A stretch of DNA of 23,864 nucleotides from a virus: the UHGV virus genome UHGV-1462696; one strand, 5' to 3'. Position numbers and translations under genes: made by a program. Shown in pieces: positions 448-23,550 of this stretch. The stretch's first letter is position 1, and every line of letters begins with the position of its first letter. The notes beneath the pieces are model-generated. The model was not told where the DNA came from. It saw nothing but the letters and a program-made list of their open reading frames with translations, and searched no databases.

Positions 448-488
448 GAGTAGATTATGCATGATGAATTTGATGGATTTTGAATACT

Positions 489-514
489 GCCGCCAACTAT
501 GGCGGCTTTATTTT
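489..514 (+). terminator. Intrinsic terminator (GCCGCC-aactat-GGCGGC followed by TTTATTTT)
   Basis: 6-bp GC stem, 6-nt loop and T-run read directly; downstream of the 101-439 gene and of palindrome A. Confidence 0.6.
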
Positions 515-525
515 GCATGGTACTA

Positions 526-540
526 TTACCACAACGGTAA
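526..540. promoter_or_regulatory. TTACC-N5-GGTAA palindromic motif (variant, spacer ACAAC), 18 nt upstream of the terminase small subunit start
   Basis: Read directly; one of six TTACC-N5-GGTAA sites in the window. Confidence 0.4.
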
Positions 541-557
541 CAATTACCACGGTGGTT

Positions 558-1154
558 ATGATGCCTGCTGAACCTAAAACCTATAAACGCAAATCAACGC
601 AATTTAAGCCGCTCACAGCAATGCAGGAGGCTTATTGCCAGTCATACATCAAAACGCCTGAAAACCAGACTCAGGCTGCGATTAACGCAGGATTCTCCCC
701 AAATACAGCGGCAGTTAAAGCCAGTGTCATGATGCGCGATGAACGCATTCAGAAACGGATTGCCGAGTTGATGGAGGAGCGCAACAAACGAATGCGTGTC
801 AGTGCTGATTACGTTCTCATGCGCCTGGTGGAGATCGACCAGATGGACGTGATCGACATCCTCAACGACGATGGGAGCCTTAAACCAATCCGTGAGTGGC
901 CGAAAATCTGGCGCACTACGCTTAGTGGCTTTGATCTGTCATCGACCATCATGAACATGAACGAGGATTCAATAGAGACAATCCTCAAAAAAATTAAATG
1001 GCCTGACAAGGTGAAGAACCTTGAGCTGATTGGTAAGCATGTTGATGTCAACGCATTCAAAGAACGTCTGGATGTTAATGTGAATGTGACAATTGCTGAT
1101 CGCATAGCAGCAGCCAGGAAGCGACTCAAAGAACGTCAGGATGATAATCAGTGA
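558..1154 (+). CDS. terS: Terminase small subunit (Terminase_2 / P27-type, N-terminal HTH)
   Basis: Motif QEAYCQSYIKTPENQTQAAINAGFSPNTAAVKAS matches the conserved N-terminal DNA-binding signature of Terminase_2-type small subunits. The track ORF begins at 480, but its first 26 codons cover the terminator hairpin and are low complexity; ATG at 558/561 is the likely start. Stop overlaps the large subunit start. Confidence 0.8.
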   Translation: MMPAEPKTYKRKSTQFKPLTAMQEAYCQSYIKTPENQTQAAINAGFSPNTAAVKASVMMRDERIQKRIAELMEERNKRMRVSADYVLMRLVEIDQMDVIDILNDDGSLKPIREWPKIWRTTLSGFDLSSTIMNMNEDSIETILKKIKWPDKVKNLELIGKHVDVNAFKERLDVNVNVTIADRIAAARKRLKERQDDNQ

Positions 1155-2626
1155 CAGATACAGCGTTATCTCCTGAAGAGCAGTTAATCGAGGATATTGC
1201 AGGGTTCACTCACGATCCACTTGGATATGCCCTCTATGCGTTCCCGTGGGGGGAAGAGGGGACTGAACTGGCACATGCCACCGGTCCACGTCAGTGGCAG
1301 GCCGATGCGTTCCGAGAGATACGTGATCATTTGCAGAATCCAGAGACGCGCTATCAGCCGCTTATGCTGGCACGTGCTTCTGGTCACGGTATTGGTAAAT
1401 CCGCATTCATCTCAATGCTGATCAACTGGGGCATGTCCACTTGCGAGGATTGTAAGGTCGTGGTGACCGCCAACACCGACAACCAGCTACGAACGAAGAC
1501 CTGGCCGGAAATTATCAAGTGGTCGAACCTTGCTATCACGAAAGACTGGTTTACCTGTACCGCTACCGCGATGTACAGCAATGACCCTGGGCACGACAAG
1601 CGGTGGCGGGCTGACGCAATACCCTGGTCTGAGCACAACACTGAGGCGTTCGCCGGACTACACAACGAGCGCAAACGCATCATCGTGGTGTTTGATGAAG
1701 CGTCGAACATTGCGGATCTGGTGTGGGAAGTTGCCGAGGGGGCGCTTACGGACGAAGACACTGAGATTATCTGGGTGGCGTTCGGAAACCCGACGCGTAA
1801 TACCGGACGTTTCCGCGAATGTTTCCGCAAATATAAACACCGCTGGAAAACTGCGCAGATTGACAGCCGGACGGTGGAAGGCACTAACAAACAGCAGTTG
1901 CAGAAATGGGTTGATGACTACGGGGAAGACAGCGACTTCGTTAAAATCCGTGTGCGCGGCATATTCCCTGATGCATCTGAATTGCAGTTTATCCCTACCG
2001 GCCTTACTGACGAGGCAATGAAACGGGGGGTAACTGCTGCGCAGGTGGCACATGCTCCGGTGATAATCGGCGTTGACCCGGCATACTCCGGCGTTGATGA
2101 CGCTGTGATATACCTGCGGCAGGGGCTGCACAGTAAGGTGCTGTGGACTGGCAACAAGACCACTGACGATCTGATTATGGCGAAGCGCATCGCTGACTTT
2201 GAAGACCAGTATCAGGCTGACGCGGTATTCATCGACTTCGGTTACGGAACCGGTTTGAAGTCAATCGGTGATGGCTGGGGACGTACATGGCAACTTGTTC
2301 CGTTCGGTGGCGCGTCTACTGACCCGCAGATGCTCAACAAGCGTGGGGAGATGTTCAACTCATGTAAGACATGGCTGAGGCTGGGCGGTATGCTGGATGA
2401 CCAGGAAACAGCGGACGACCTGTCGACGGCAGAGTACAAAGTTCGCGTGGACGGTAAAATCGTTATCGAACCGAAGGAAGATATCAAAGAACGACTTGGG
2501 CGTTCGCCGGGGAAAGGCGATGCGCTATTGCTGACGTTTGCTTTCCCTGTGTCGAAGCGCCTGCGAATTCCCGGTCAGCAGAACCAGCAAGGCAAGGCCA
2601 TCACAGATTACGACCCGTTTGCGTGA
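1151..2626 (+). CDS. terL: Terminase large subunit (ATPase plus nuclease)
   Basis: 491 aa; Walker A-like ARASGHGIGKS, Walker B-like IIVVFDEAS, C-terminal RNaseH-like nuclease segment (VIIGVDPAYSG); GTG start overlapping terS stop (GTGA). Confidence 0.88.
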   Translation: MTDTALSPEEQLIEDIAGFTHDPLGYALYAFPWGEEGTELAHATGPRQWQADAFREIRDHLQNPETRYQPLMLARASGHGIGKSAFISMLINWGMSTCEDCKVVVTANTDNQLRTKTWPEIIKWSNLAITKDWFTCTATAMYSNDPGHDKRWRADAIPWSEHNTEAFAGLHNERKRIIVVFDEASNIADLVWEVAEGALTDEDTEIIWVAFGNPTRNTGRFRECFRKYKHRWKTAQIDSRTVEGTNKQQLQKWVDDYGEDSDFVKIRVRGIFPDASELQFIPTGLTDEAMKRGVTAAQVAHAPVIIGVDPAYSGVDDAVIYLRQGLHSKVLWTGNKTTDDLIMAKRIADFEDQYQADAVFIDFGYGTGLKSIGDGWGRTWQLVPFGGASTDPQMLNKRGEMFNSCKTWLRLGGMLDDQETADDLSTAEYKVRVDGKIVIEPKEDIKERLGRSPGKGDALLLTFAFPVSKRLRIPGQQNQQGKAITDYDPFA

Positions 2627-2627
2627 T

Positions 2628-3368
2628 TTATTGCTTATTTTTCACGGCTTCAGCAATCATTCTCTCAGCCTGTGATGTATATGTTTTTCGCAAGGGTTCA
2701 TGGCCCATATGCAATACGATACTTTCCTTTTCTTTTTCCTTTAATTCTTGTATGAGATTATTTATTTTGGCCTCCCTATCTTCAAGCATTCTGGCGGACT
2801 TTTCTGCCTCAATCTTTAACGCTGCAGCCACTGATTGCATGTTTTCCAGCTTCTTATTCAATTCCAAAACCTTATCGGAGAGCCTATCTCTTTCCGACGT
2901 TAGCTCACCCATCCTGGCCTGTGACTCCGTAATTCTTTCCTTCATAGCCTGTATGTCTTTTTCGGCGCCAGTCTTAACTTTGTCGTATGTCACATCGTGC
3001 TTTGCCTTCAGGCGCTGCAGGCGTGTGGCGCGATGAATGCGCTTGGCCTTCCGGTGGTTCTCTATCGAATCGTAATTATCAAGAGGTTTGGCTTGCCACT
3101 TTGAAATCACGTTGTTGATCCAGGGCATGCCGCCGCACAGGATTATTGCTGAAACACATGGGAATGCTAATACCGTTTTCCAACTGCTATTGCTGGAAAT
3201 GTAGGTGATCTTGTCGATGATGCTGGAGTCGCTGAGGAGTAAGTATAAAATCGACTTCCAGTTAAAGGCGCACCATGACAGTGCGAACGCTCCAAACACT
3301 GGATTTCTGACCCTTTGCGCAGCGGTATTAACGGTTGAAGATAGGTATTCTTTAAGTGATTCAAGCAT
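2628..3368 (-). CDS. Membrane-anchored coiled-coil protein of unknown function (accessory; candidate abortive-infection / superinfection-exclusion effector)
   Basis: 246 aa; two hydrophobic segments in the N-terminal ~90 aa (FGAFALSWCAFNWKSILYLLL; VLAFPCVSAIILCGGMPWI) followed by ~130 aa of heptad-like charged sequence; AT-rich relative to flanks by eye; AAGGG SD upstream of ATG at 3368; opposite strand to the late operon. Confidence 0.6.
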   Translation of the reverse strand: MLESLKEYLSSTVNTAAQRVRNPVFGAFALSWCAFNWKSILYLLLSDSSIIDKITYISSNSSWKTVLAFPCVSAIILCGGMPWINNVISKWQAKPLDNYDSIENHRKAKRIHRATRLQRLKAKHDVTYDKVKTGAEKDIQAMKERITESQARMGELTSERDRLSDKVLELNKKLENMQSVAAALKIEAEKSARMLEDREAKINNLIQELKEKEKESIVLHMGHEPLRKTYTSQAERMIAEAVKNKQ

Positions 3369-3398
3369 GTCCAGGCCCTTTTAGGTTTTTTTCTGATT

Positions 3399-3413
3399 CT
3401 ACCTTTAAGGTAA
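3399..3413. promoter_or_regulatory. TTACC-N5-GGTAA-type palindrome (CTACC-TTTAA-GGTAA) in the promoter of the 246-aa gene
   Basis: 31-45 nt upstream of the ATG at 3368; on the gene strand the site reads TTACCTTAAAGGTAGAAT, so the -10-like TAGAAT overlaps it. Confidence 0.5.
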
Positions 3414-3480
3414 TCTTCGGTCATTATGAAAAACGTATCCCTATGAGGGGATAATGTCGTTGATATCCTCTGATGAGGAT

Positions 3481-3506
3481 AAAACAAAGCCAGCTCATCG
3501 GCTGGC
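3481..3506 (-). terminator. Intrinsic terminator on minus strand (GCCAGC-cgatga-GCTGGC followed by TTTGTTTT)
   Basis: Read directly; immediately downstream of palindrome B and the stop of the 3528-3899 gene. Confidence 0.6.
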
Positions 3507-3511
3507 TGTTT

Positions 3512-3523
3512 GTGACATGTCAC
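3512..3523. repeat. Perfect 12-bp palindrome GTGACATGTCAC, copy B
   Basis: Read directly; 5 nt after the stop codon (3528-3530, minus strand) of the 123-aa gene. Confidence 0.9.
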
Positions 3524-3527
3524 GGTG

Positions 3528-3899
3528 TTATTGCTCGCTTAGCTTCTGCTTCAGCAAGTAACCTTCGAGCATCCAGATTTTGTTTACAGCATTCTGCCGG
3601 GCAATCTTCCGACCAATTTCTGCATCAAAGTTTTCATGGCTTGCACAGGCGCTTTCTCCGGTTACAGTAAATCCGTTGCGCAGCACCAGAACGCAGAAGG
3701 TCAGCAGAGAAAGTGATTCGTGCGGCTGGTAGTTTACCTCTCCGCCAGTATGTTTCGCTTTTATGGCTTTGCCAAAGGCACCATCTTCTGCTGTGAAATA
3801 TGCCTCCTGAGCAATAATGCCTTCGATATGGTCTGGCGTAACGCGCGGTGCCGTTTTGCCTTTCTCAACGATTTCTTTTTCGATTTGCTTGTCGTTCAT
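3528..3899 (-). CDS. Hypothetical small phage protein (possibly Gp49-like family)
   Basis: 123 aa; strong SD AAGGTGA 4-5 nt before ATG at 3899; central motif CVLVLRNGFTVTGESACASHENFD resembles small conserved phage proteins; family assignment is from memory only. Confidence 0.55.
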   Translation of the reverse strand: MNDKQIEKEIVEKGKTAPRVTPDHIEGIIAQEAYFTAEDGAFGKAIKAKHTGGEVNYQPHESLSLLTFCVLVLRNGFTVTGESACASHENFDAEIGRKIARQNAVNKIWMLEGYLLKQKLSEQ

Positions 3900-3910
3900 A
3901 ATCTCACCTT

Positions 3911-3934
3911 AAAAAAATGCCCGGCGAACCGGGC
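3911..3934 (-). terminator. Intrinsic terminator on minus strand (GCCCGG-ttcg-CCGGGC followed by ATTTTTTT), immediately upstream of the RBS of the 123-aa gene
   Basis: Read directly from the reverse complement of 3911-3934. Confidence 0.6.
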
Positions 3935-4010
3935 GAACTGGAAGCAATGAGTTATGCCTTCCGTGGCTGTACGTGTTTACAGCATGAAGTCATCGCAATG
4001 GCGTCCTGCT

Positions 4011-4054
4011 GTAAAAAGGGCGGTGATAGTCCTTCAAGGGAAACTATCACCGCC
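4011..4054 (-). terminator. Long hairpin (12-bp stem GGCGGTGATAGT/ACTATCACCGCC, 12-nt loop) followed by CTTTTTA on minus strand; probable tRNA terminator
   Basis: Read directly; about 44 nt downstream of the tRNA 3' end. Confidence 0.5.
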
Positions 4055-4097
4055 AAGCACCTGGAACTTCTGGCATCACGGTCCTTAGGCGTGATTC

Positions 4098-4174
4098 TGG
4101 CGTGGCATGCAGGATTCGAACCTGCGACCAACCGCTTAGAAGGCGGTTGCTCTGTCCAACTGAGCTAATGCCAC
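4098..4174 (-). tRNA. tRNA-Arg (anticodon UCU), phage-encoded
   Basis: Reverse complement gives a 77-nt cloverleaf: acceptor GTGGCAT/ATGCCAC, D-arm GCTC-AGTTGGACA-GAGC, anticodon stem ACCGC/GCGGT with loop CTTCTAA (anticodon TCT), T-arm GCAGG-TTCGAAT-CCTGC, discriminator G, encoded CCA. Confidence 0.85.
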
Positions 4175-4496
4175 AACGCTGAGAGCACTTAGCCTGTTAA
4201 GGCGCCACACTTTGTCGCGGCTCCATAAATGCTCTCATCGTTGTACCCTCGTCTCTTCCGAGGCGTCACACCGAATCGCCGGGATGGTGAATCCCCGTGC
4301 GCGGAATAAAACCGCTCGACTTGCACATTCCGGCTACCTGGTTCGTTTGCCCGAGCAAGGGAGGGTGTCCCTTAAACGTATCCAGACCGCTATCGGCGCA
4401 TGTGCCATACGCCGTACTGCTCAAAATAAAAGCTCACTCCACCTGTTCAATTTAACGACAAGCCAGTCAGGTTAATAACCGGAATGAACCCTTTAC

Positions 4497-4511
4497 TTAC
4501 CTGAAAGGTAA
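4497..4511. promoter_or_regulatory. TTACC-TGAAA-GGTAA palindrome (17-mer identical to the site at 23536) in the divergent region between the tRNA and the portal module
   Basis: Read directly; 91 nt upstream of the ATG at 4602. Confidence 0.55.
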
Positions 4512-4601
4512 TAATTTGTGCGTTAAATGTCAACTTCCTACGATAAATAAATCATATGTGGTTAAATTGGTAATAATTTAATTGCGTACGGAGTCATTGA
4601 T

Positions 4602-4808
4602 ATGTGCATGGGTAGCTCACCATCAGTGCCTGCAACACCAGAAATTCAGGCAGCACCACAGGAGCAGGATGCCGCCGTTGTTGATGCCCGCGACGAAGAA
4701 ACTCGTCGCCGTCGCGCTGCTGCTGGTCGTAGTTCTACGCTGCTTACCGGTTCTCAGGGCGACACATCAACCGCTAATACCAGCGGTAAAACGCTGCTTG
4801 GTCAGTAA
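4602..4808 (+). CDS. Small hypothetical protein (68 aa) upstream of portal
   Basis: ATG preceded by GGAGTCATTGA, the same 11-mer that precedes the portal start; GC-rich coding-like composition; function unknown. Confidence 0.4.
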   Translation: MCMGSSPSVPATPEIQAAPQEQDAAVVDARDEETRRRRAAAGRSSTLLTGSQGDTSTANTSGKTLLGQ

Positions 4809-4822
4809 CCGGAGTCATTGAA

Positions 4823-6502
4823 ATGGCGGAAACAACTAAAGAGCGATTGAACAAACAGTTCGCACAACTTGAAAGCGAGCGTCAGTCGTTCGAGCCGCAC
4901 TGGCGCGAGTTGAGTGATTACATCAACCCGCGTGGTTCCCGCTTTCTGACTTCTGAGGTCAACCGTAACGATCGACGCAATACACGCATTATTGATTCGA
5001 CCGGGACTATGGCGGCGCGCACTCTCGCCAGCGGCATGATGTCAGGCATCACAAGCCCCGCGCGTCCGTGGTTTCGCCTGGCTACGCCAGATCCTGAAAT
5101 GATGGATTATGGCCCTGTTAAGTTGTGGCTTGAGGCGGTGCAGAACCGCATGAACGATATGTTCAATAAGTCGAATCTCTATCAGTCGCTGCCGCAGTTA
5201 TACGGAAGCCTCGGCACATACAGCACTGGTGCAATGGCAGTGCTGGAGGATGACGAGGACATCATTCGCACAATGCCATTCCCGATAGGCAGTTACTACC
5301 TGGCTAACTCACCTCGTGGCAGTGTGGACACCTGTTTTCGCAAGTTCTCTATGACTGTTCGTCAGCTTGTTCAGGAGTTCGGGCTAAATAACGTCAGCGA
5401 ATCCGTAAAAAGCATGTGGGAAAGCGGCACTTACGAGAAGTGGATTGAAGTGATGCATTCGGTTTACCCGAACATTGACCGCGATACATCGAAGCTGGAT
5501 AGCAAGAACAAGCCATTCAAATCGGTTTATTACGAGGTTGGCGGCGATAACGACAAGTTGTTGCGTGAGTCCGGATTCGATGAGTTTCCAATTATGGCTC
5601 CGCGCTGGGAAGTTAACGGCGAAGATGTTTATGGATCATCATGCCCGGGTATGCTGGCGCTTGGACCTGTTAAGGCATTGCAGCTTCTCCAGAAGCGCAA
5701 GTCGCAGTTGATTGATAAAGCCACCAATCCGCCGATGGTTGCTCCGACTTCCCTCAAGAATCAGCGCGCCTCCCTTCTTCCTGGCGACATCACGTATATC
5801 GATCAGATTACTGGTCAGGATGGTTTCAGGCCTGCTTATCTGGTTAACCCCAGTACAGCAGATCTGGTGGCAGACATTCAGGACACTCGCCAAATCATTA
5901 ACAGCGCCTACTTTGTCGATCTGTTCATGATGTTGCAGAACATCAATACCCGCTCGATGCCTGTTGAAGCGGTGATCGAAATGAAAGAAGAAAAACTTTT
6001 GATGTTGGGGCCGGTTCTGGAGCGTCTGAACGACGAATGTCTTAATCCTCTCATTGATCGCGCTTTCTCGATGATGGTGCGTAAAAACATGCTGCCGCCA
6101 CCGCCTGACGCGATGGAAGGCATGCCCCTGAAGGTCGAATACATTTCCGTCATGGCTCAGGCGCAGAAGTCTATCGGCCTGTCCAGTCTGGCGTCCACGG
6201 TTAACTTCATTGGTCAACTTGCGCAAGCGAAACCAGAAGCTCTCGACAAACTCAACGTTGATCAGGCGATCGATGCATTCGCTGATATGTCCGGAGTGTC
6301 TCCAACCGTCATTGTTCCGCAGGAACAGGTTGAGCAGGCTCGCCAGCAACGGGCACAGCAGCAACAGCAGCAACAAATGATGGCGATGGGGATGGCGGCG
6401 GCACAGGGTGCCAAGACGCTAAGCGAAGCTAAAACTTCGGATCCGAGTGTTTTGTCAGCTATGGCGAATGCAGTTAGTGGTCAGGGTGGGCAATCACAAT
6501 GA
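4823..6502 (+). CDS. Portal protein (T7 gp8-like head-to-tail connector)
   Basis: 559 aa; position after terminase; Q/M/A-rich C-terminal tail (QQQQQQQMMAMGMAAAQG) resembling the T7 gp8 C-terminus; strong SD. Confidence 0.75.
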   Translation: MAETTKERLNKQFAQLESERQSFEPHWRELSDYINPRGSRFLTSEVNRNDRRNTRIIDSTGTMAARTLASGMMSGITSPARPWFRLATPDPEMMDYGPVKLWLEAVQNRMNDMFNKSNLYQSLPQLYGSLGTYSTGAMAVLEDDEDIIRTMPFPIGSYYLANSPRGSVDTCFRKFSMTVRQLVQEFGLNNVSESVKSMWESGTYEKWIEVMHSVYPNIDRDTSKLDSKNKPFKSVYYEVGGDNDKLLRESGFDEFPIMAPRWEVNGEDVYGSSCPGMLALGPVKALQLLQKRKSQLIDKATNPPMVAPTSLKNQRASLLPGDITYIDQITGQDGFRPAYLVNPSTADLVADIQDTRQIINSAYFVDLFMMLQNINTRSMPVEAVIEMKEEKLLMLGPVLERLNDECLNPLIDRAFSMMVRKNMLPPPPDAMEGMPLKVEYISVMAQAQKSIGLSSLASTVNFIGQLAQAKPEALDKLNVDQAIDAFADMSGVSPTVIVPQEQVEQARQQRAQQQQQQQMMAMGMAAAQGAKTLSEAKTSDPSVLSAMANAVSGQGGQSQ

Positions 6503-20668: not shown

Positions 20669-21229
20669 ATGAAGGCAATTATATTTTTTGTTTCAATATT
20701 GATGTCTGCATTTTCTTTTGCAGGGCAAAATGTTAAATGCGAACTTCAATACTTTGGAGATAACGATAAATTTAAGGTAACTCAGTTTTCTTTTATGGGG
20801 ATTCCATCTGATTCATACCTTTATACCTGTGCCGACTGTGGAGGCATCCAGATAAACGTGTTCCCATCTATTCAGACTGTTGCTTCCTACTCATTTGAAA
20901 ACAACATTGATTTCGAAAGGAAAATCAATGCTGAATACAACAGAAAAGACATAGCTAAACTTGAGATGGAAAACGTTACTCAAGGCGGGAGAATAAAATA
21001 TTCAATCACCGATACTGGTTTGGCAGAGTTTTACCCAGAGGGCAAAAAGATAAGCTACCTCTACTTTTTAGCCAAGCAACAAAATGGTAAAGAACAAGTA
21101 GGTTATTCAGGATTTGTTACCTCTAACGGGGATAAGTCATGCTCAATTATTGCGACATATCCAGGAAAAGAAATTTCTTTTCTGGGAAGTAAATCTTTAA
21201 GCTACTTTATGAATCATATATCAATGTAG
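20669..21229 (+). CDS. Secreted or periplasmic hypothetical protein (moron)
   Basis: Signal peptide MKAIIFFVSILMSAFSFA then GQN, no lipobox; strongly AT-rich codon usage unlike the flanking virion genes; starts 2 nt after the upstream stop, so likely co-transcribed with late genes. Confidence 0.6.
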   Translation: MKAIIFFVSILMSAFSFAGQNVKCELQYFGDNDKFKVTQFSFMGIPSDSYLYTCADCGGIQINVFPSIQTVASYSFENNIDFERKINAEYNRKDIAKLEMENVTQGGRIKYSITDTGLAEFYPEGKKISYLYFLAKQQNGKEQVGYSGFVTSNGDKSCSIIATYPGKEISFLGSKSLSYFMNHISM

Positions 21230-21304: not shown

Positions 21305-21329
21305 CACAAAAAAGCCCGCAACGCGGGCT
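21305..21329 (-). terminator. Intrinsic terminator on minus strand (AGCCCGC-gtt-GCGGGCT followed by TTTTTTGT), overlapping the stop of the YafO-like gene
   Basis: Read from the reverse complement. Confidence 0.6.
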
Positions 21330-21874
21330 TATTCCTTCCATTTATCAGAAAAAAGATCTTCTTCTAAAGGCATTGGTTCTGTTTTTGTTTTCTCAAAGAA
21401 TTGATAACTGATAGTGATTGCTTCCTCTTTAAACTCTTCTTGCTCAGTTATGTTGTGGGCATCTGCGTCAACAAAAAACATAACCAGCGCATCACGATTG
21501 TGATTTACCGAATAAACTAAAAAGCAATCACTTGTTGGTATGCATTTTACTTGCACAGACGCTATATTTTTCCATGCATCCCAAGATGATTTTTTACCAG
21601 TGTGTTTTTTATCACTATCTTCTGGAATATAGTCTTGGTTATCGACATGAGTATGCCTGACATTTAGTTTAAGCATTTCTGTCGGACGAGCAAATGCAGC
21701 ATCTTTACCAAGAGATGGATGGTATCCCGTTTTCCAATACTGGGTAAAGGCATCAGATACTTTCTTCAGCTCAAGATCAGATGCACAAAGGGCCGAGAAA
21801 TTTTGCGTATGCAATACTCGACCCTTATATCTGACAATTTGATTTTTATCATTCTGCGACGCAGACGAACTCAT
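21329..21874 (-). CDS. YafO-like toxin candidate (ribosome-dependent mRNA interferase family) with acidic C-terminal tail
   Basis: Motifs FTQYWKTGYHPSLGKDAAF, NVRHTHV and CFLVYSVNHNRDALVMFFVDADAH parallel YafO segments as recalled (FISYKRDGVLPDIFGRDALY; VAHIHL; AHLVYCQGAFDEQAWLLIAILKPEPH); AT-rich; AAGGA SD before ATG at 21874; the track ORF extends to 21901. Confidence 0.5.
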   Translation of the reverse strand: MSSSASQNDKNQIVRYKGRVLHTQNFSALCASDLELKKVSDAFTQYWKTGYHPSLGKDAAFARPTEMLKLNVRHTHVDNQDYIPEDSDKKHTGKKSSWDAWKNIASVQVKCIPTSDCFLVYSVNHNRDALVMFFVDADAHNITEQEEFKEEAITISYQFFEKTKTEPMPLEEDLFSDKWKE

Positions 21875-22028
21875 AATTTTCCTTATTGTTACGAGAATCA
21901 AAGAAAGCTCGGGATACGCGACTTGCGTGATCTTTTGTCATAGTAACTTTTACGTACTCTACGCTTCCATTGAAAGAACGTCTTGCGGCAGCTTGCGCTC
22001 TACGCATCTGCAATTTTTCGTTTCGCAT
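21849..22028 (-). CDS. Small basic ORF (59 aa, below the track cutoff); candidate antitoxin or regulator
   Basis: Hand-translated from the reverse complement: MRNEKLQMRRAQAAARRSFNGSVEYVKVTMTKDHASRVSRAFFDSRNNKENYEFVCVAE; GAGG SD 7 nt upstream; overlaps the start of the YafO-like gene by 26 nt in another frame; sigma70-like promoter TTGGTT-17-TGTAAT upstream. Confidence 0.3.
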   Translation of the reverse strand: MRNEKLQMRRAQAAARRSFNGSVEYVKVTMTKDHASRVSRAFFDSRNNKENYEFVCVAE

Positions 22029-22088: not shown

Positions 22089-22103
22089 TTACCCTTGAGG
22101 TAA
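22089..22103. promoter_or_regulatory. TTACC-CTTGA-GGTAA palindrome adjacent to the predicted promoter of the small-ORF / YafO-like unit
   Basis: Read directly; 61-75 nt upstream of the ATG at 22028. Confidence 0.5.
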
Positions 22104-22175: not shown

Positions 22176-22886
22176 TCAGAAGAACCCAGCCTTGTCGTTG
22201 ATGTACTCCGCGTGAGTCTGGATATCACGCAGGCATTTGCTCACACCAACGATGTAGCAAAACATGGTGGTCAGCTCCGCCGCCGCGCCCGATACATCGT
22301 GCCCGTCTTCCTGCAACTGGTTCAGCAAATTCATCAGCAGTGAGTTCTCCGTCAGGCCGAGAACACCAGACGGAGAATGAATCAGACTGCGGTAGCCGGG
22401 CTTCAGTGGGGCACTGTAGGTTTTGTTCTCTATCTTCATTGCCTGCATCACTGCTGATGCTGTGGCGTTGGCTACCTGGTCGGCAACCATCTTTATGCGT
22501 TCTTCCTGCGGGAGCGAGTTTTTAATGTAACTTCCGGTGCGGCGGATCTGAGGAAGAACCTCACCTGTAACCCATTTACGAAAGCGGTAGGGGATAGTGC
22601 CTGGTGTCACCGCATCGCGGCAGCGGAGGATCAGTGTGTAGAGGCCTGACTCGGAGATGATGTTGATCTCTTTTACTCGGCTGTCAAAAATTGCACGATG
22701 TTCATGCCCTATGTTGAACATAGACCTTTCATCATCATCCAGTTTTTCAAGTGCTTGGGTGACGTTTTGGATACGCAGCGCACTACAAACGTCTTGGGCT
22801 ACAAACCATGGTTGGCCATCGATAATGATGGAACGGATAGGGTTAACAGATTCAAATTTGAAGATGGCAGTTTGAGCATTAGCCAT
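22176..22886 (-). CDS. ant: Phage antirepressor-like protein (N-terminal Bro-N domain plus C-terminal Ant-type domain)
   Basis: N-terminal AIFKFESVNPIRSIIIDGQPWFVAQDVCSALRIQNVTQALEKLDDDE is a typical Bro-N signature; ATG at 22886 with GGAG SD is preferred over the GTG at 22901 used by the track. Confidence 0.75.
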   Translation of the reverse strand: MANAQTAIFKFESVNPIRSIIIDGQPWFVAQDVCSALRIQNVTQALEKLDDDERSMFNIGHEHRAIFDSRVKEINIISESGLYTLILRCRDAVTPGTIPYRFRKWVTGEVLPQIRRTGSYIKNSLPQEERIKMVADQVANATASAVMQAMKIENKTYSAPLKPGYRSLIHSPSGVLGLTENSLLMNLLNQLQEDGHDVSGAAAELTTMFCYIVGVSKCLRDIQTHAEYINDKAGFF

Positions 22887-23041
22887 GGTGGTTATCTCCA
22901 CTTAGTGATTTTAATCACCACCGCAACGCCAATTACTGGTGGTGAACTGGACAAGGTTGGCGTACCGGCCTAAGTGGTACCGGCGTCCTTTCGGACCCCT
23001 GCCCAGCCCACCATAATTCGGATATGGCTGTGCTTAACGCA

Positions 23042-23065
23042 TAAAAAAACCACGTCTGGCGTGGT
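23042..23065 (-). terminator. Intrinsic terminator on minus strand (ACCACG-ccaga-CGTGGT followed by TTTTTTTAT)
   Basis: Read from the reverse complement; downstream of the truncated ant paralog. Confidence 0.6.
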
Positions 23066-23155
23066 ATGCGCCACTTAGTAACTCGGGACGCCAATCCCGG
23101 CACTGGATTTTGCCAGTGCCCGATTACTATGGCACAAGAGGAGTGCGATGTAAAT

Positions 23156-23170
23156 TTACCGCAAAGGTAA
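23156..23170. promoter_or_regulatory. TTACC-GCAAA-GGTAA palindrome embedded in the 30-nt loop of a 10-bp inverted repeat (AGAGGAGTGC 23137-23146 / GCACTCCTCT 23177-23186)
   Basis: Read directly. Confidence 0.5.
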
Positions 23171-23535: not shown

Positions 23536-23550
23536 TTACCTGAAAGGTAA
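23536..23550. promoter_or_regulatory. TTACC-TGAAA-GGTAA palindrome in the divergent region between the ant paralog and the tail fibre gene
   Basis: 17-mer TTACCTGAAAGGTAATA identical to the site at 4497; 105 nt upstream of the tail fibre ATG. Confidence 0.55.

What the first reader, a model, noticed from the sequence alone, without database searches (positions are those of the whole stretch)
2628..3368. Membrane-anchored coiled-coil protein: candidate abortive-infection or superinfection-exclusion effector
The 246-aa product has two predicted hydrophobic helices at the N-terminus followed by a long, highly charged, heptad-like segment (about residues 100-230) with no recognisable enzymatic motif. 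This architecture recurs in phage exclusion and abortive-infection proteins and in membrane sensors. The gene has its own promoter overlapped by a TTACC-N5-GGTAA site and is transcribed opposite to the late genes, consistent with expression from the prophage.
Basis: inference. Interest (0 to 1): 0.6.

Follow-up and report, generated by a model that had tools for sequence, protein, structure and literature searches.

The report
Swappable-tail membrane protein phage cargo gene
A real 246-residue membrane-plus-coiled-coil protein, carried as a self-contained add-on gene in a phiV10-like E. coli prophage, belongs to a large uncharacterised phage family with a conserved membrane half and a freely swapped tail, which makes it a plausible but untested phage-exclusion candidate.

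Summary
ORF 2628-3368 (-) encodes 246 aa with two conserved hydrophobic helices (aa 23-46, 63-86), a basic stalk and a long coiled coil. No enzymatic or known domain was found in Pfam, NCBIfam, PADLOC, PDB sequence search or fold searches.

The gene is an 830-bp single-gene cassette (2617-3446), absent from phage phiV10, inserted at the terL stop codon and antisense to the late genes. The family (PHROG 4780, function unknown) has 318 clusters at E<=1e-10. It sits at accessory positions in several prophage types.

Residues 1-160 are 74-81% identical among relatives. Residues 161-end are 14% identical and fall into at least 15 unrelated classes, which points to module swapping. This fits a phage-conflict protein (exclusion or abortive infection), but no homology links it to SieB, spanins, holins or any listed defence family.

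The promoter is real, being conserved in 31 upstream variants. Its TACC-N5-GGTA palindrome is fused to the -10. In phiV10 the same motif brackets the repressor gene and marks most transcription-unit starts. It therefore looks like a repressor operator, which argues against simple constitutive prophage expression. Function is untested.

The parts
2617..3446 (-). The accessory cassette (moron): gene plus 78 nt of upstream control region. It is present here and absent from phage phiV10.
   Evidence: blastn: phiV10 aligns to window 2001-2616 and 3447-5000 only. GC is 42-47% against 54-55% in terL.
2628..3368 (-). CDS of the 246-aa protein (stop codon 2628-2630). Member of PHROG 4780, function unknown.
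   Evidence: phrog_4780, E 8.9e-89. 204 close homologues, all named hypothetical.
3231..3302 (-). Hydrophobic helix 1 (aa 23-46). It carries the family hallmark NP...G...W..FNWK, and the model kinks at N36.
3111..3182 (-). Hydrophobic helix 2 (aa 63-86), with conserved P70, C78, P82-W83 and N85-N86. In the model it continues without a break into the stalk helix.
2889..3083 (-). Conserved basic juxtamembrane stalk and first part of the coiled coil (aa 96-160). This is the most conserved segment (81% mean pairwise identity).
   Evidence: Net charge of aa 87-125 is +3.4 on family average.
2631..2888 (-). Hypervariable C-terminal coiled-coil module (aa 161-246), swapped among at least 15 unrelated classes.
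   Evidence: 14% mean pairwise identity, lengths 70-115 aa. 27 pairs are >=85% identical in the N part but <25% in the C part. In other E. coli genomes the DNA match stops at query position ~315.
3396..3424 (-). Sigma-70-type promoter: -35 ATGACC (3424-3419), 17-nt spacer, -10 TAGAAT (3401-3396).
   Evidence: The same layout is conserved in 31 distinct upstream variants and in four other prophage contexts.
3399..3413 (.). Palindrome TTACC-TTAAA-GGTAG (operator-like). Its right arm is fused to the -10.
   Evidence: The TACC arm is conserved although the flanking spacer varies. The same motif lies at operator-like positions around the phiV10 repressor gene.
3376..3380 (-). Shine-Dalgarno-like AAGGG, 7 nt before the ATG.
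   Evidence: sequence; conserved in homologues
3488..3507 (-). Terminator hairpin between the Gp49-family gene and the cassette promoter. It corresponds to the annotated phiV10 terminator downstream of terL.
1151..2626 (+). terL (large terminase), convergent with the cassette gene. The two stop codons are 1 nt apart, and no terminator lies after the cassette gene.
3528..3899 (-). Gp49 / Sf6 gp66 family gene, the usual alternative occupant of the same slot.
   Evidence: PF13876, E 2.5e-34. Only 2 of about 60 slot loci carry both genes.
4098..4174 (-). tRNA-Arg (anticodon TCT), a backbone feature of the slot.

Best explanation
This is a single-gene phage accessory cassette (moron). It encodes an inner-membrane protein built from three modules:
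1. A conserved membrane module: an amphipathic helix plus two hydrophobic helices studded with invariant polar, aromatic and proline residues. The predicted topology is N-in/C-in.
2. A conserved basic stalk that starts a cytoplasmic coiled coil.
3. A C-terminal coiled-coil tail that is exchanged wholesale between alleles.

Most likely it is a phage-conflict protein of the exclusion or abortive-infection kind. In this model the coiled coil oligomerises the protein, the swappable tail sets which (phage) partner is recognised, and the conserved membrane module does the work, either blocking genome entry or opening the membrane.

Its sigma-70 promoter carries, fused to the -10, the palindrome that appears to be the backbone repressor's operator. 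The gene is therefore probably held down in a quiet lysogen and switched on at infection or induction. Where it sits in prophages with other repressors it may be constitutive.

Shown: cassette boundaries, family, architecture, module swapping, promoter and palindrome conservation, and the motif's distribution in phiV10.
Inferred: topology, oligomerisation, who binds the palindrome, timing of expression, and the anti-phage role itself.
For: Cassette nature:
- A precise 830-bp presence/absence difference against phiV10, with lower GC than terL.
- It has its own promoter and is antisense to both neighbours in all ~59 Uetakevirus-slot loci.

Mobility:
- Homologues lie in lambdoid prophages between the replication and nin genes (L003-L005, L079), at a prophage end after the tail-fibre genes (L082, L083), and in the terL-portal slot (L006, L080).
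- One backbone (TerL 98-99%, portal 100% identical) carries three different alleles.

Real, constrained protein:
- 59 invariant columns among 32 homologues.
- The hallmarks R19, P23, G26, W32, N36, W37, P70 and P82 are kept in >=90% of 138 sequences at 12% mean column identity.
- The membrane segment is among the most conserved parts (lowest entropy at aa 31-40), so it is more than an anchor.

Polymorphic tail:
- Pairwise identity is 74% and 81% in the first two modules against 14% in the tail, with a sharp break at about residue 160.
- There are at least 15 tail classes and 27 pairs with near-identical N parts but unrelated C parts.

Topology: family net charge is +1.1 (N-terminus), -0.6 (loop) and +3.4 (after helix 2).

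Regulation:
- The TACC arm is conserved while the adjacent spacer varies.
- phiV10 has 14 sites (<=1 mismatch), including pairs on both sides of repressor gene p40 and sites at the int, terS, head, antirepressor and DUF1064 unit starts.

Against: - No homology or fold match to any validated exclusion or abortive-infection protein, and no experiment of any kind on any family member was found.
- Coiled-coil tails can also diverge quickly under weak constraint, so tail variability alone does not prove a recognition role.
- Helix 1 is only moderately hydrophobic and has an invariant N-W-K in its middle, so membrane insertion is not proven. No dedicated topology predictor could be run.
- If the palindrome is a repressor operator, the protein would be scarce in lysogens. 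That weakens the classic picture of a prophage protecting its host.
- The palindrome is retained in lambdoid contexts that show no other such site within about 6 kb on either side, including their cI/cro regions. The binder may therefore not be the Uetakevirus repressor.
- No terminator follows the gene.
- No known defence gene was seen in the same slot in the few phages inspected.
Confidence: 0.42

Rival explanations
1. A helper for the phage's own lytic cycle rather than a weapon against other phages. Examples would be a lysis-timing or holin modulator, a counter-defence factor acting on a membrane-associated host system, or a host-takeover factor. It would be switched on when the repressor is lost.
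For: The promoter is built like the backbone's repressor-type promoters, for example the phiV10 int promoter TTACCTTAAAGGTATACT, and the palindrome overlaps the -10. The predicted two-helix N-in/C-in topology with a charged cytoplasmic tail resembles class II holins (own knowledge; topology). Hypervariable partners are also typical of counter-defence proteins.
Against: The gene is dispensable for the backbone: phiV10, ZX5 and phiv142-3 lack it, and only 3 of 50,697 isolated-phage records have it. It lies far from the lysis cassette. hhalign shows no relation to the phiV10 holin or Rz-like protein (0.1% and 0.8%). In lambdoid contexts it is antisense to the early/nin operon.
Confidence: 0.25
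2. A lysogenic-conversion factor that serves host fitness (envelope stress, colonisation, membrane signalling) and has no role in phage-phage conflict.
For: Morons often alter host surface or physiology (PMC3573123). The architecture of a membrane module plus coiled coil also fits membrane sensors or scaffolds.
Against: Wholesale swapping of the tail among at least 15 classes, and different alleles in identical backbones, point to an arms-race partner rather than a conserved host target. The operator-like site argues against steady expression in the lysogen.
Confidence: 0.12
3. A membrane-tethered DNA-binding autoregulator. The basic region (aa 104-124) followed by a zipper-like coiled coil would bind the cassette's own palindrome.
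For: The palindrome travels with the cassette into prophages that have no other such site nearby. A basic stretch directly precedes the coiled coil. A few family members give weak bZIP hits (bZIP_1: 2 members, best E 0.0035; bZIP_Maf: 1 member, E 0.0015).
Against: The bZIP hits are at coiled-coil noise level. The half-sites are one helical turn apart (N5), which suits helix-turn-helix proteins and not a basic-zipper fork (own knowledge). A positive juxtamembrane stretch is already expected from the positive-inside rule. The same palindrome occurs 14 times in phiV10, which lacks this gene.
Confidence: 0.03
4. A spanin, holin or virion structural protein that has been misread as cargo.
For: An N-terminal membrane segment plus a coiled coil superficially resembles an i-spanin.
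Against: hhalign against the phiV10 Rz-like protein gives 0.8% probability and against the holin 0.1%. There are two hydrophobic helices, not one, and the charge distribution puts the coiled coil in the cytoplasm. The gene is not in the lysis cassette. It is absent from phiV10 and most relatives. It is antisense to the late operon.
Confidence: 0.02

Closest known systems
PHROG 4780 (with phrog_13369, phrog_35327 and phrog_24478), phage protein families of unknown function
   Same: Direct sequence membership: E 8.9e-89 over residues 1-219.
   Different: The family carries no functional annotation, so membership names the protein without explaining it.
SieB of phage lambda / P22 (PF14163), a prophage abortive-infection protein
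   Same: A small membrane protein with N-terminal hydrophobic helices and a cytoplasmic remainder. In lambda, sieB is a single gene antisense to the surrounding pL operon (annotation).
   Different: No detectable homology: Pfam gives no hit and hhalign gives 1.6% probability. SieB has no long coiled coil. No swappable tail was seen or tested for SieB.
HK97 gp15 and T4 Imm/Sp type superinfection-exclusion membrane proteins (own knowledge)
   Same: Phage-encoded inner-membrane proteins with no enzymatic domain. HK97 gp15 is a moron inside a late operon. T4 Imm and Sp are made during the lytic programme, which would match a repressor-controlled promoter.
   Different: Not compared by sequence here because no reference sequences were in hand. 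Those proteins are much smaller and have no 150-residue cytoplasmic coiled coil or polymorphic tail.
Rz-type i-spanins and class II holins
   Same: An N-terminal membrane segment plus coiled coil (spanin). A two-helix N-in/C-in topology with a charged C-terminus (holin).
   Different: No homology to the phiV10 Rz-like protein or holin. Wrong genomic place, wrong strand, wrong predicted side of the membrane for a spanin, and about three times holin size.
Phage P1 C1 repressor regulon, with many dispersed operators including one at the c4-ant immunity operon (own knowledge)
   Same: A single palindrome or operator type scattered over the genome at many unit starts, including in front of an isrK/C4-antirepressor operon. 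This is a precedent for an accessory gene wired to the main repressor.
   Different: The P1 operator is a different, asymmetric sequence. The binder of TTACC-N5-GGTAA has not been identified experimentally, and the one Uetakevirus regulatory paper found maps no operator (PMC9782041).

Membership tests
Moron (phage accessory cassette, as described in PMC3573123 and the works it cites) | The extra gene lies between two genes that are adjacent in related phages. | tested here: met
   phiV10 lacks window 2617-3446 exactly, and its flanks align on both sides. In phiV10, terL is followed directly by the terminator and the Gp49 gene.
Moron (phage accessory cassette, as described in PMC3573123 and the works it cites) | It has its own promoter. 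| tested here: met
   The -35/-10 elements at 3424-3396 are conserved with the gene in 31 upstream variants and in other prophage types. Activity has not been measured.
Moron (phage accessory cassette, as described in PMC3573123 and the works it cites) | It has its own terminator. | tested here: not met
   The stop codon is 1 nt from the terL stop, and only a weak hairpin lies inside terL at 2505-2489.
Moron (phage accessory cassette, as described in PMC3573123 and the works it cites) | Its composition differs from the backbone and it varies between related phages. | tested here: met
   GC is 42-47% against 54-55%. The slot holds Gp49, this family or an unrelated ORF in different phages.
PHROG 4780 | Significant match to the family profile over most of its length. 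| tested here: met
   E 8.9e-89, residues 1-219 against profile positions 1-215 of 275.
SieB (PF14163) | Sequence match to the SieB profile or to lambda SieB. | tested here: not met
   No Pfam hit even at E<=1. hhalign of the family profile against lambda SieB gives 1.6% probability. Lambda SieB itself hits PF14163 at 1e-29.
SieB (PF14163) | Aborts the lytic growth of superinfecting phages. | not testable with these tools
   Requires plaque and one-step growth assays.
i-spanin (Rz-like) | Homology to Rz-like proteins, a single N-terminal membrane helix with a periplasmic coiled coil, and a gene in the lysis cassette with a partner lipoprotein gene. | tested here: not met
   hhalign against the phiV10 Rz-like protein gives 0.8%. 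There are two hydrophobic helices, and the charge pattern predicts a cytoplasmic coiled coil. The gene sits between terL and portal on the opposite strand. No embedded same-strand ORF with a signal peptide or lipobox appears in the ORF list.
Class II holin | A small (about 65-95 aa) two-helix protein encoded next to the endolysin. | tested here: not met
   The protein is 246 aa and not next to lysis genes. hhalign against the phiV10 holin gives 0.1%. Only the predicted topology is similar.
Known anti-phage defence systems (PADLOC-DB v2.0.0, 2023) | A match to a defence protein model outside coiled-coil regions. | tested here: not met
   The query and 44 family members hit only the coiled-coil parts of LmuB, JetC, PbeC and similar models at weak E-values. 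Systems described after 2023 are not covered.
Abortive-infection or superinfection-exclusion effector (functional class) | Confers resistance to phage when expressed. | not testable with these tools
   No experimental report on any family member was found. The Brenes & Laub 2025 prophage-defence screen could not be read.

The most novel reading that the evidence does not exclude
The family is a new single-gene, polymorphic anti-phage system. A conserved two-helix membrane effector is fused, at a fixed recombination joint near residue 160, to interchangeable coiled-coil sensor cassettes that each recognise a different phage cue. The whole unit is plugged into the carrier phage's repressor circuit, so that it fires during infection or induction. 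Tail swapping would then be a ready-made way to reprogramme specificity.
Probability: 0.25. Interest if true: 0.7.

Novelty: new member of a known kind. Interest (0 to 1): 0.45.

Why it matters
If the protein does exclude or abort other phages, it would add a widespread defence family to the catalogue: 318 clusters at 50% identity with E<=1e-10, and about 1% of complete E. coli genomes. It is domain-less and would be missed by Pfam and by PADLOC v2.0.0 (2023). Its sharp two-part design (constant membrane half, exchangeable tail) offers a simple experimental handle on how specificity is encoded, through chimeras. The promoter finding also matters on its own. It suggests that ε15/phiV10-like phages silence nearly all their transcription units, and their cargo, through one palindromic operator, which has not been mapped experimentally.

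Tried and rejected
1. Domain and family searches. The protein and 44 distant relatives were scanned against Pfam, NCBIfam and PADLOC. Only coiled-coil noise came back (PEARLI-4, SMC, LmuB, JetC and similar).
2. PDB profile search. Coiled-coil noise only, best E 0.025.
3. Structure.
   - The first AlphaFold model (32-sequence alignment) was poor in the N-terminal part (pLDDT 45-76).
   - A second model of residues 1-135 with 138 sequences reached pLDDT 86.
   - The AFDB library was not available.
4. SieB, Rz-like spanin and holin. All rejected by hhalign.
5. MqsA as binder of the palindrome. The published MqsA site is AACCT-N3-AGGTT (PMC4894380). Only the ACCT...AGGT core is shared, and a second group of cassette promoters (CTACCATATCGGTA) lacks even that. 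Rejected as weak.
6. Literature. Searches for phiV10 with moron, for the RefSeq accession, and for architecture keywords found nothing on this family. The ZX5 Uetakevirus paper maps no operator. The Brenes & Laub prophage-defence paper is not held.
7. Public-collection searches.
   - The second word-indexed protein search with the distant profile returned mostly the same close relatives.
8. The promoter scan alone is not significant. The promoter claim rests on conservation instead.

Full report
**What is there**

The ORF at 2628-3368 on the minus strand starts with ATG and encodes 246 residues. An AAGGG ribosome-binding site lies 7 nt upstream of the start.

The window is the late region of a phiV10/ε15-like (Uetakevirus) prophage of E. 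coli. It holds the following genes:
- small terminase at 480-1154
- large terminase (terL) at 1151-2626
- the gene in question
- a Gp49 / Sf6-gp66 family gene at 3528-3899 on the minus strand
- tRNA-Arg(TCT) at 4098-4174 on the minus strand
- a T7-type portal at 4823-6502, followed by head and tail genes

The gene is therefore antisense to the late operon and convergent with terL. The two stop codons are one base apart.

**Architecture**

Kyte-Doolittle analysis finds two hydrophobic segments, residues 23-46 (maximum 1.31, moderate) and 63-86 (maximum 1.95). Both remain in the mean hydropathy of 44 relatives that share only 16% column identity (1.38 and 1.75).

Family-average net charge is +1.1 before helix 1, -0.6 in the loop and +3.4 after helix 2. 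By the positive-inside rule this predicts N-in/C-in, with the coiled coil in the cytoplasm. That topology is an inference, because no dedicated predictor could be run.

AlphaFold with a 32-sequence alignment gives an all-helical protein with a confident long helix at 135-221. With 138 sequences, the first 135 residues reach pLDDT 86, with helices at 2-20, 23-35, 37-45, 50-60 and 63-133. Helix 2 therefore runs straight into the stalk. A stable heptad register covers about 131-172.

**It is a discrete cassette**

blastn shows that phiV10 aligns with the window up to 2616 and again from 3447. The 830 bases in between, which hold the gene plus 78 nt upstream, are an insertion relative to phiV10. 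GC there is 42-47% against 54-55% in terL.

In E. coli UTME-12 the same cassette is present but the Gp49 gene is missing. Of 74 loci carrying a homologue, about 59 have it in this same terL-portal slot, always antisense to both neighbours, and only 2 also keep Gp49.

Other homologues sit in different accessory positions:
- in lambdoid prophages between the replication genes and the nin genes (L003-L005, L079)
- at a prophage end after the tail-fibre genes (L082, L083)

One nearly identical backbone (TerL 98-99%, portal 100%) carries three different alleles. In other Uetakeviruses the slot holds Gp49 (phiV10, ZX5), an unrelated 115-residue ORF (TL-2011b) or a 201-residue family member (EC.W1-9).

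All this meets the definition of a moron, except that no terminator follows the gene.

**Family size and distribution**

- An exhaustive profile search finds 1845 cluster representatives at E<=0.001 and 318 at E<=1e-10. The weakest hits may be coiled-coil matches, but the best ones align from residue 1.
- All named members are 'hypothetical' or 'coiled-coil domain-containing'.
- Family DNA is found in 62 of 5426 complete E. coli genomes, and this allele in 5.
- Only 3 of 50,697 isolated-phage records carry the family.

**The striking feature: a constant half and a swapped tail**

Among 32 enterobacterial homologues, mean pairwise identity is 74% for residues 1-95, 81% for residues 96-160 and 14% from residue 161 to the end. 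Column entropy jumps from below 1 to above 2.4 at residue 160, and tail lengths run from 70 to 115 residues.

The tails fall into at least 15 classes. In 27 pairs the N parts are 85-93% identical while the tails are unalignable. At the DNA level, other E. coli alleles match only the promoter and the first 60% of the gene. This is module replacement at a fixed joint, not gradual drift.

Within the conserved half, the membrane segment is among the most constrained parts. Residues N22, P23, G26, F28, S31, A34, F35, N36, W37, K38, P70, S73, C78, P82, W83, N85 and N86 are invariant among close relatives. R19, P23, G26, W32, N36, W37, P70 and P82 are kept in at least 90% of 138 distant members. A mere anchor would not be conserved like this, so the membrane module probably performs the function or holds a specific partner. 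That is an inference.

**Regulation**

The promoter predicted at 3424-3396 (ATGACC, 17 nt, TAGAAT) is not significant as a pattern match by itself. It recurs, however, upstream of homologues in 31 distinct sequence variants and in four other prophage contexts. The conserved layout, in order, is:
- an upstream T-run terminator
- a -35 of (A/G)TGAC(C/T)
- a variable spacer
- the palindrome (T/C)TACC-N5-GGTA, whose right arm is fused to the -10 TAnAnT
- a conserved leader and a Shine-Dalgarno site

The left arm TACC has no sigma-70 role, yet it is conserved while its neighbours vary. That indicates a bound dimeric (or two-domain) regulator.

In the window, TTACC-N5-GGTAA occurs 8 times (<=1 mismatch) against 0.27 expected. 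Sites lie before terS, before the head genes and around the antirepressor genes.

In the complete phiV10 genome there are 14 sites:
- two between repressor gene p40 and the divergent cro-like gene p41
- two on the other side of p40, in front of the leftward early genes
- pairs 62 nt apart, one at a -10 and one over the first gene's ribosome-binding site (for example before DUF1064 gene p45)
- sites before terS, the head genes, an antirepressor, the tail fibre, the oac/lysis divergence and int. The int site reads TTACCTTAAAGGTATACT, the same design as the cassette promoter.

The repressor p40 has an HTH_3 domain and a second weak Cro/YdaS-like HTH match, in line with its annotation as a two-HTH protein.

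The most economical reading is that this palindrome is the phage repressor's operator. On that reading the cassette gene belongs to a genome-wide repressor regulon, for which phage P1's C1 regulon is a precedent (own knowledge). A site over the -10 predicts repression in the quiet lysogen and expression on infection or induction.

Three caveats apply:
- The binder is not identified experimentally. The one Uetakevirus regulatory paper found maps no operator.
- A similar site lies next to oac, which acts in phiV10 lysogens according to its annotation.
- Lambdoid carriers of the cassette keep the palindrome without any other such site nearby.

**Function**

No homology gives the answer, so the call rests on anatomy and context. 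The combination of features is what phage-conflict cargo looks like:
- a mobile single-gene cassette found at accessory hotspots of several prophage types
- allelic diversity within identical backbones
- a conserved membrane module
- an oligomerising cytoplasmic coiled coil
- a swapped tail

I therefore put the anti-phage reading (entry exclusion or abortive infection) first, at about 0.4. The rivals are:
- a helper for the phage's own lytic cycle or a counter-defence factor, about 0.25, favoured by the operator
- a host-fitness conversion factor, about 0.12
- a membrane-tethered autoregulator, about 0.03
- a spanin, holin or structural protein, about 0.02, already contradicted and by position and topology

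**Comparison with known systems**

The closest analogue in logic is lambda/P22 SieB, a small membrane protein from a single gene antisense to its operon. Membership was tested and fails. HK97 gp15 and T4 Imm/Sp are functional analogies from memory and were not tested. The protein is a member of PHROG 4780 only.

**Verdict**

It is best filed as a new, uncharacterised member of the known kind 'phage moron encoding a membrane conflict protein'. It is of moderate interest because of its abundance, its clean two-module polymorphism and its link to a previously unmapped operator network.

Noticed in passing
window 526-540, 544-558, 3399-3413, 4497-4511, 21031-21045, 22089-22103, 23156-23170, 23536-23550; L078 (phiV10), 14 sites: The palindrome TTACC-N5-GGTAA is strongly over-represented (8 sites against 0.27 expected). 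In phiV10 it brackets the repressor gene and sits at most transcription-unit starts. Sites often come in pairs, 62 nt apart, with one fused to a -10 and the other over the first gene's ribosome-binding site. This looks like a genome-wide repressor operator network that has not been mapped experimentally.
   Followed up: partly
window 22935-23119 (-): Rfam finds an isrK Hfq-binding RNA (67 bits) and a C4 antisense RNA (66 bits) directly upstream of the Bro-N antirepressor gene at 22176-22901 (-). This is a P1/P7-type immI arrangement, and a TTACC-N5-GGTAA site lies just upstream at 23156-23170.
   Followed up: no
window 21329-21901 (-): A 190-residue ORF with a borderline YafO-toxin match (PF13957, E 9e-6, 26.1 bits against a cut-off of 25). 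No obvious antitoxin partner was examined. It lies beside the antirepressor region and has a palindrome site at 22089-22103 upstream.
   Followed up: no
window 20669-21229 (+): A 186-residue ORF with a signal-peptide-like N-terminus (MKAIIFFVSILMSAFSFAGQ) and no Pfam match, immediately after the last large tail/injection gene. TL-2011b annotates the counterpart as a 'transmembrane anchored protein'. It may be another cargo gene.
   Followed up: no
window 3528-4174 (-): The Gp49 / Sf6-gp66 family gene and tRNA-Arg(TCT) form an antisense unit inside the late operon. Across about 60 related prophages the slot holds either Gp49 or the membrane/coiled-coil gene, and almost never both (2 loci). They behave like alternatives.
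   Followed up: partly
window 480-1154 (+), sites at 526-558: Two tandem palindrome sites lie immediately before the ATGATG near 559, inside the ORF as listed from TTG 480. The true terS start is probably that ATG, and the second site overlaps its ribosome-binding site.
   Followed up: no
L079 6994-7908 (+): In a lambdoid prophage, a distant family member (22% identity) is followed on the same strand by a 304-residue Ion_trans_2 (potassium-channel-like) gene. Together they form a two-gene antisense insert.
   Followed up: no
E. coli records NZ_CP079771.1 and NZ_CP079768.1 (41,027 bp, filed as plasmids): Family members occur on two 41-kb 'plasmid' records whose size matches a Uetakevirus genome. 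These may be circular phage genomes deposited as plasmids.
   Followed up: no
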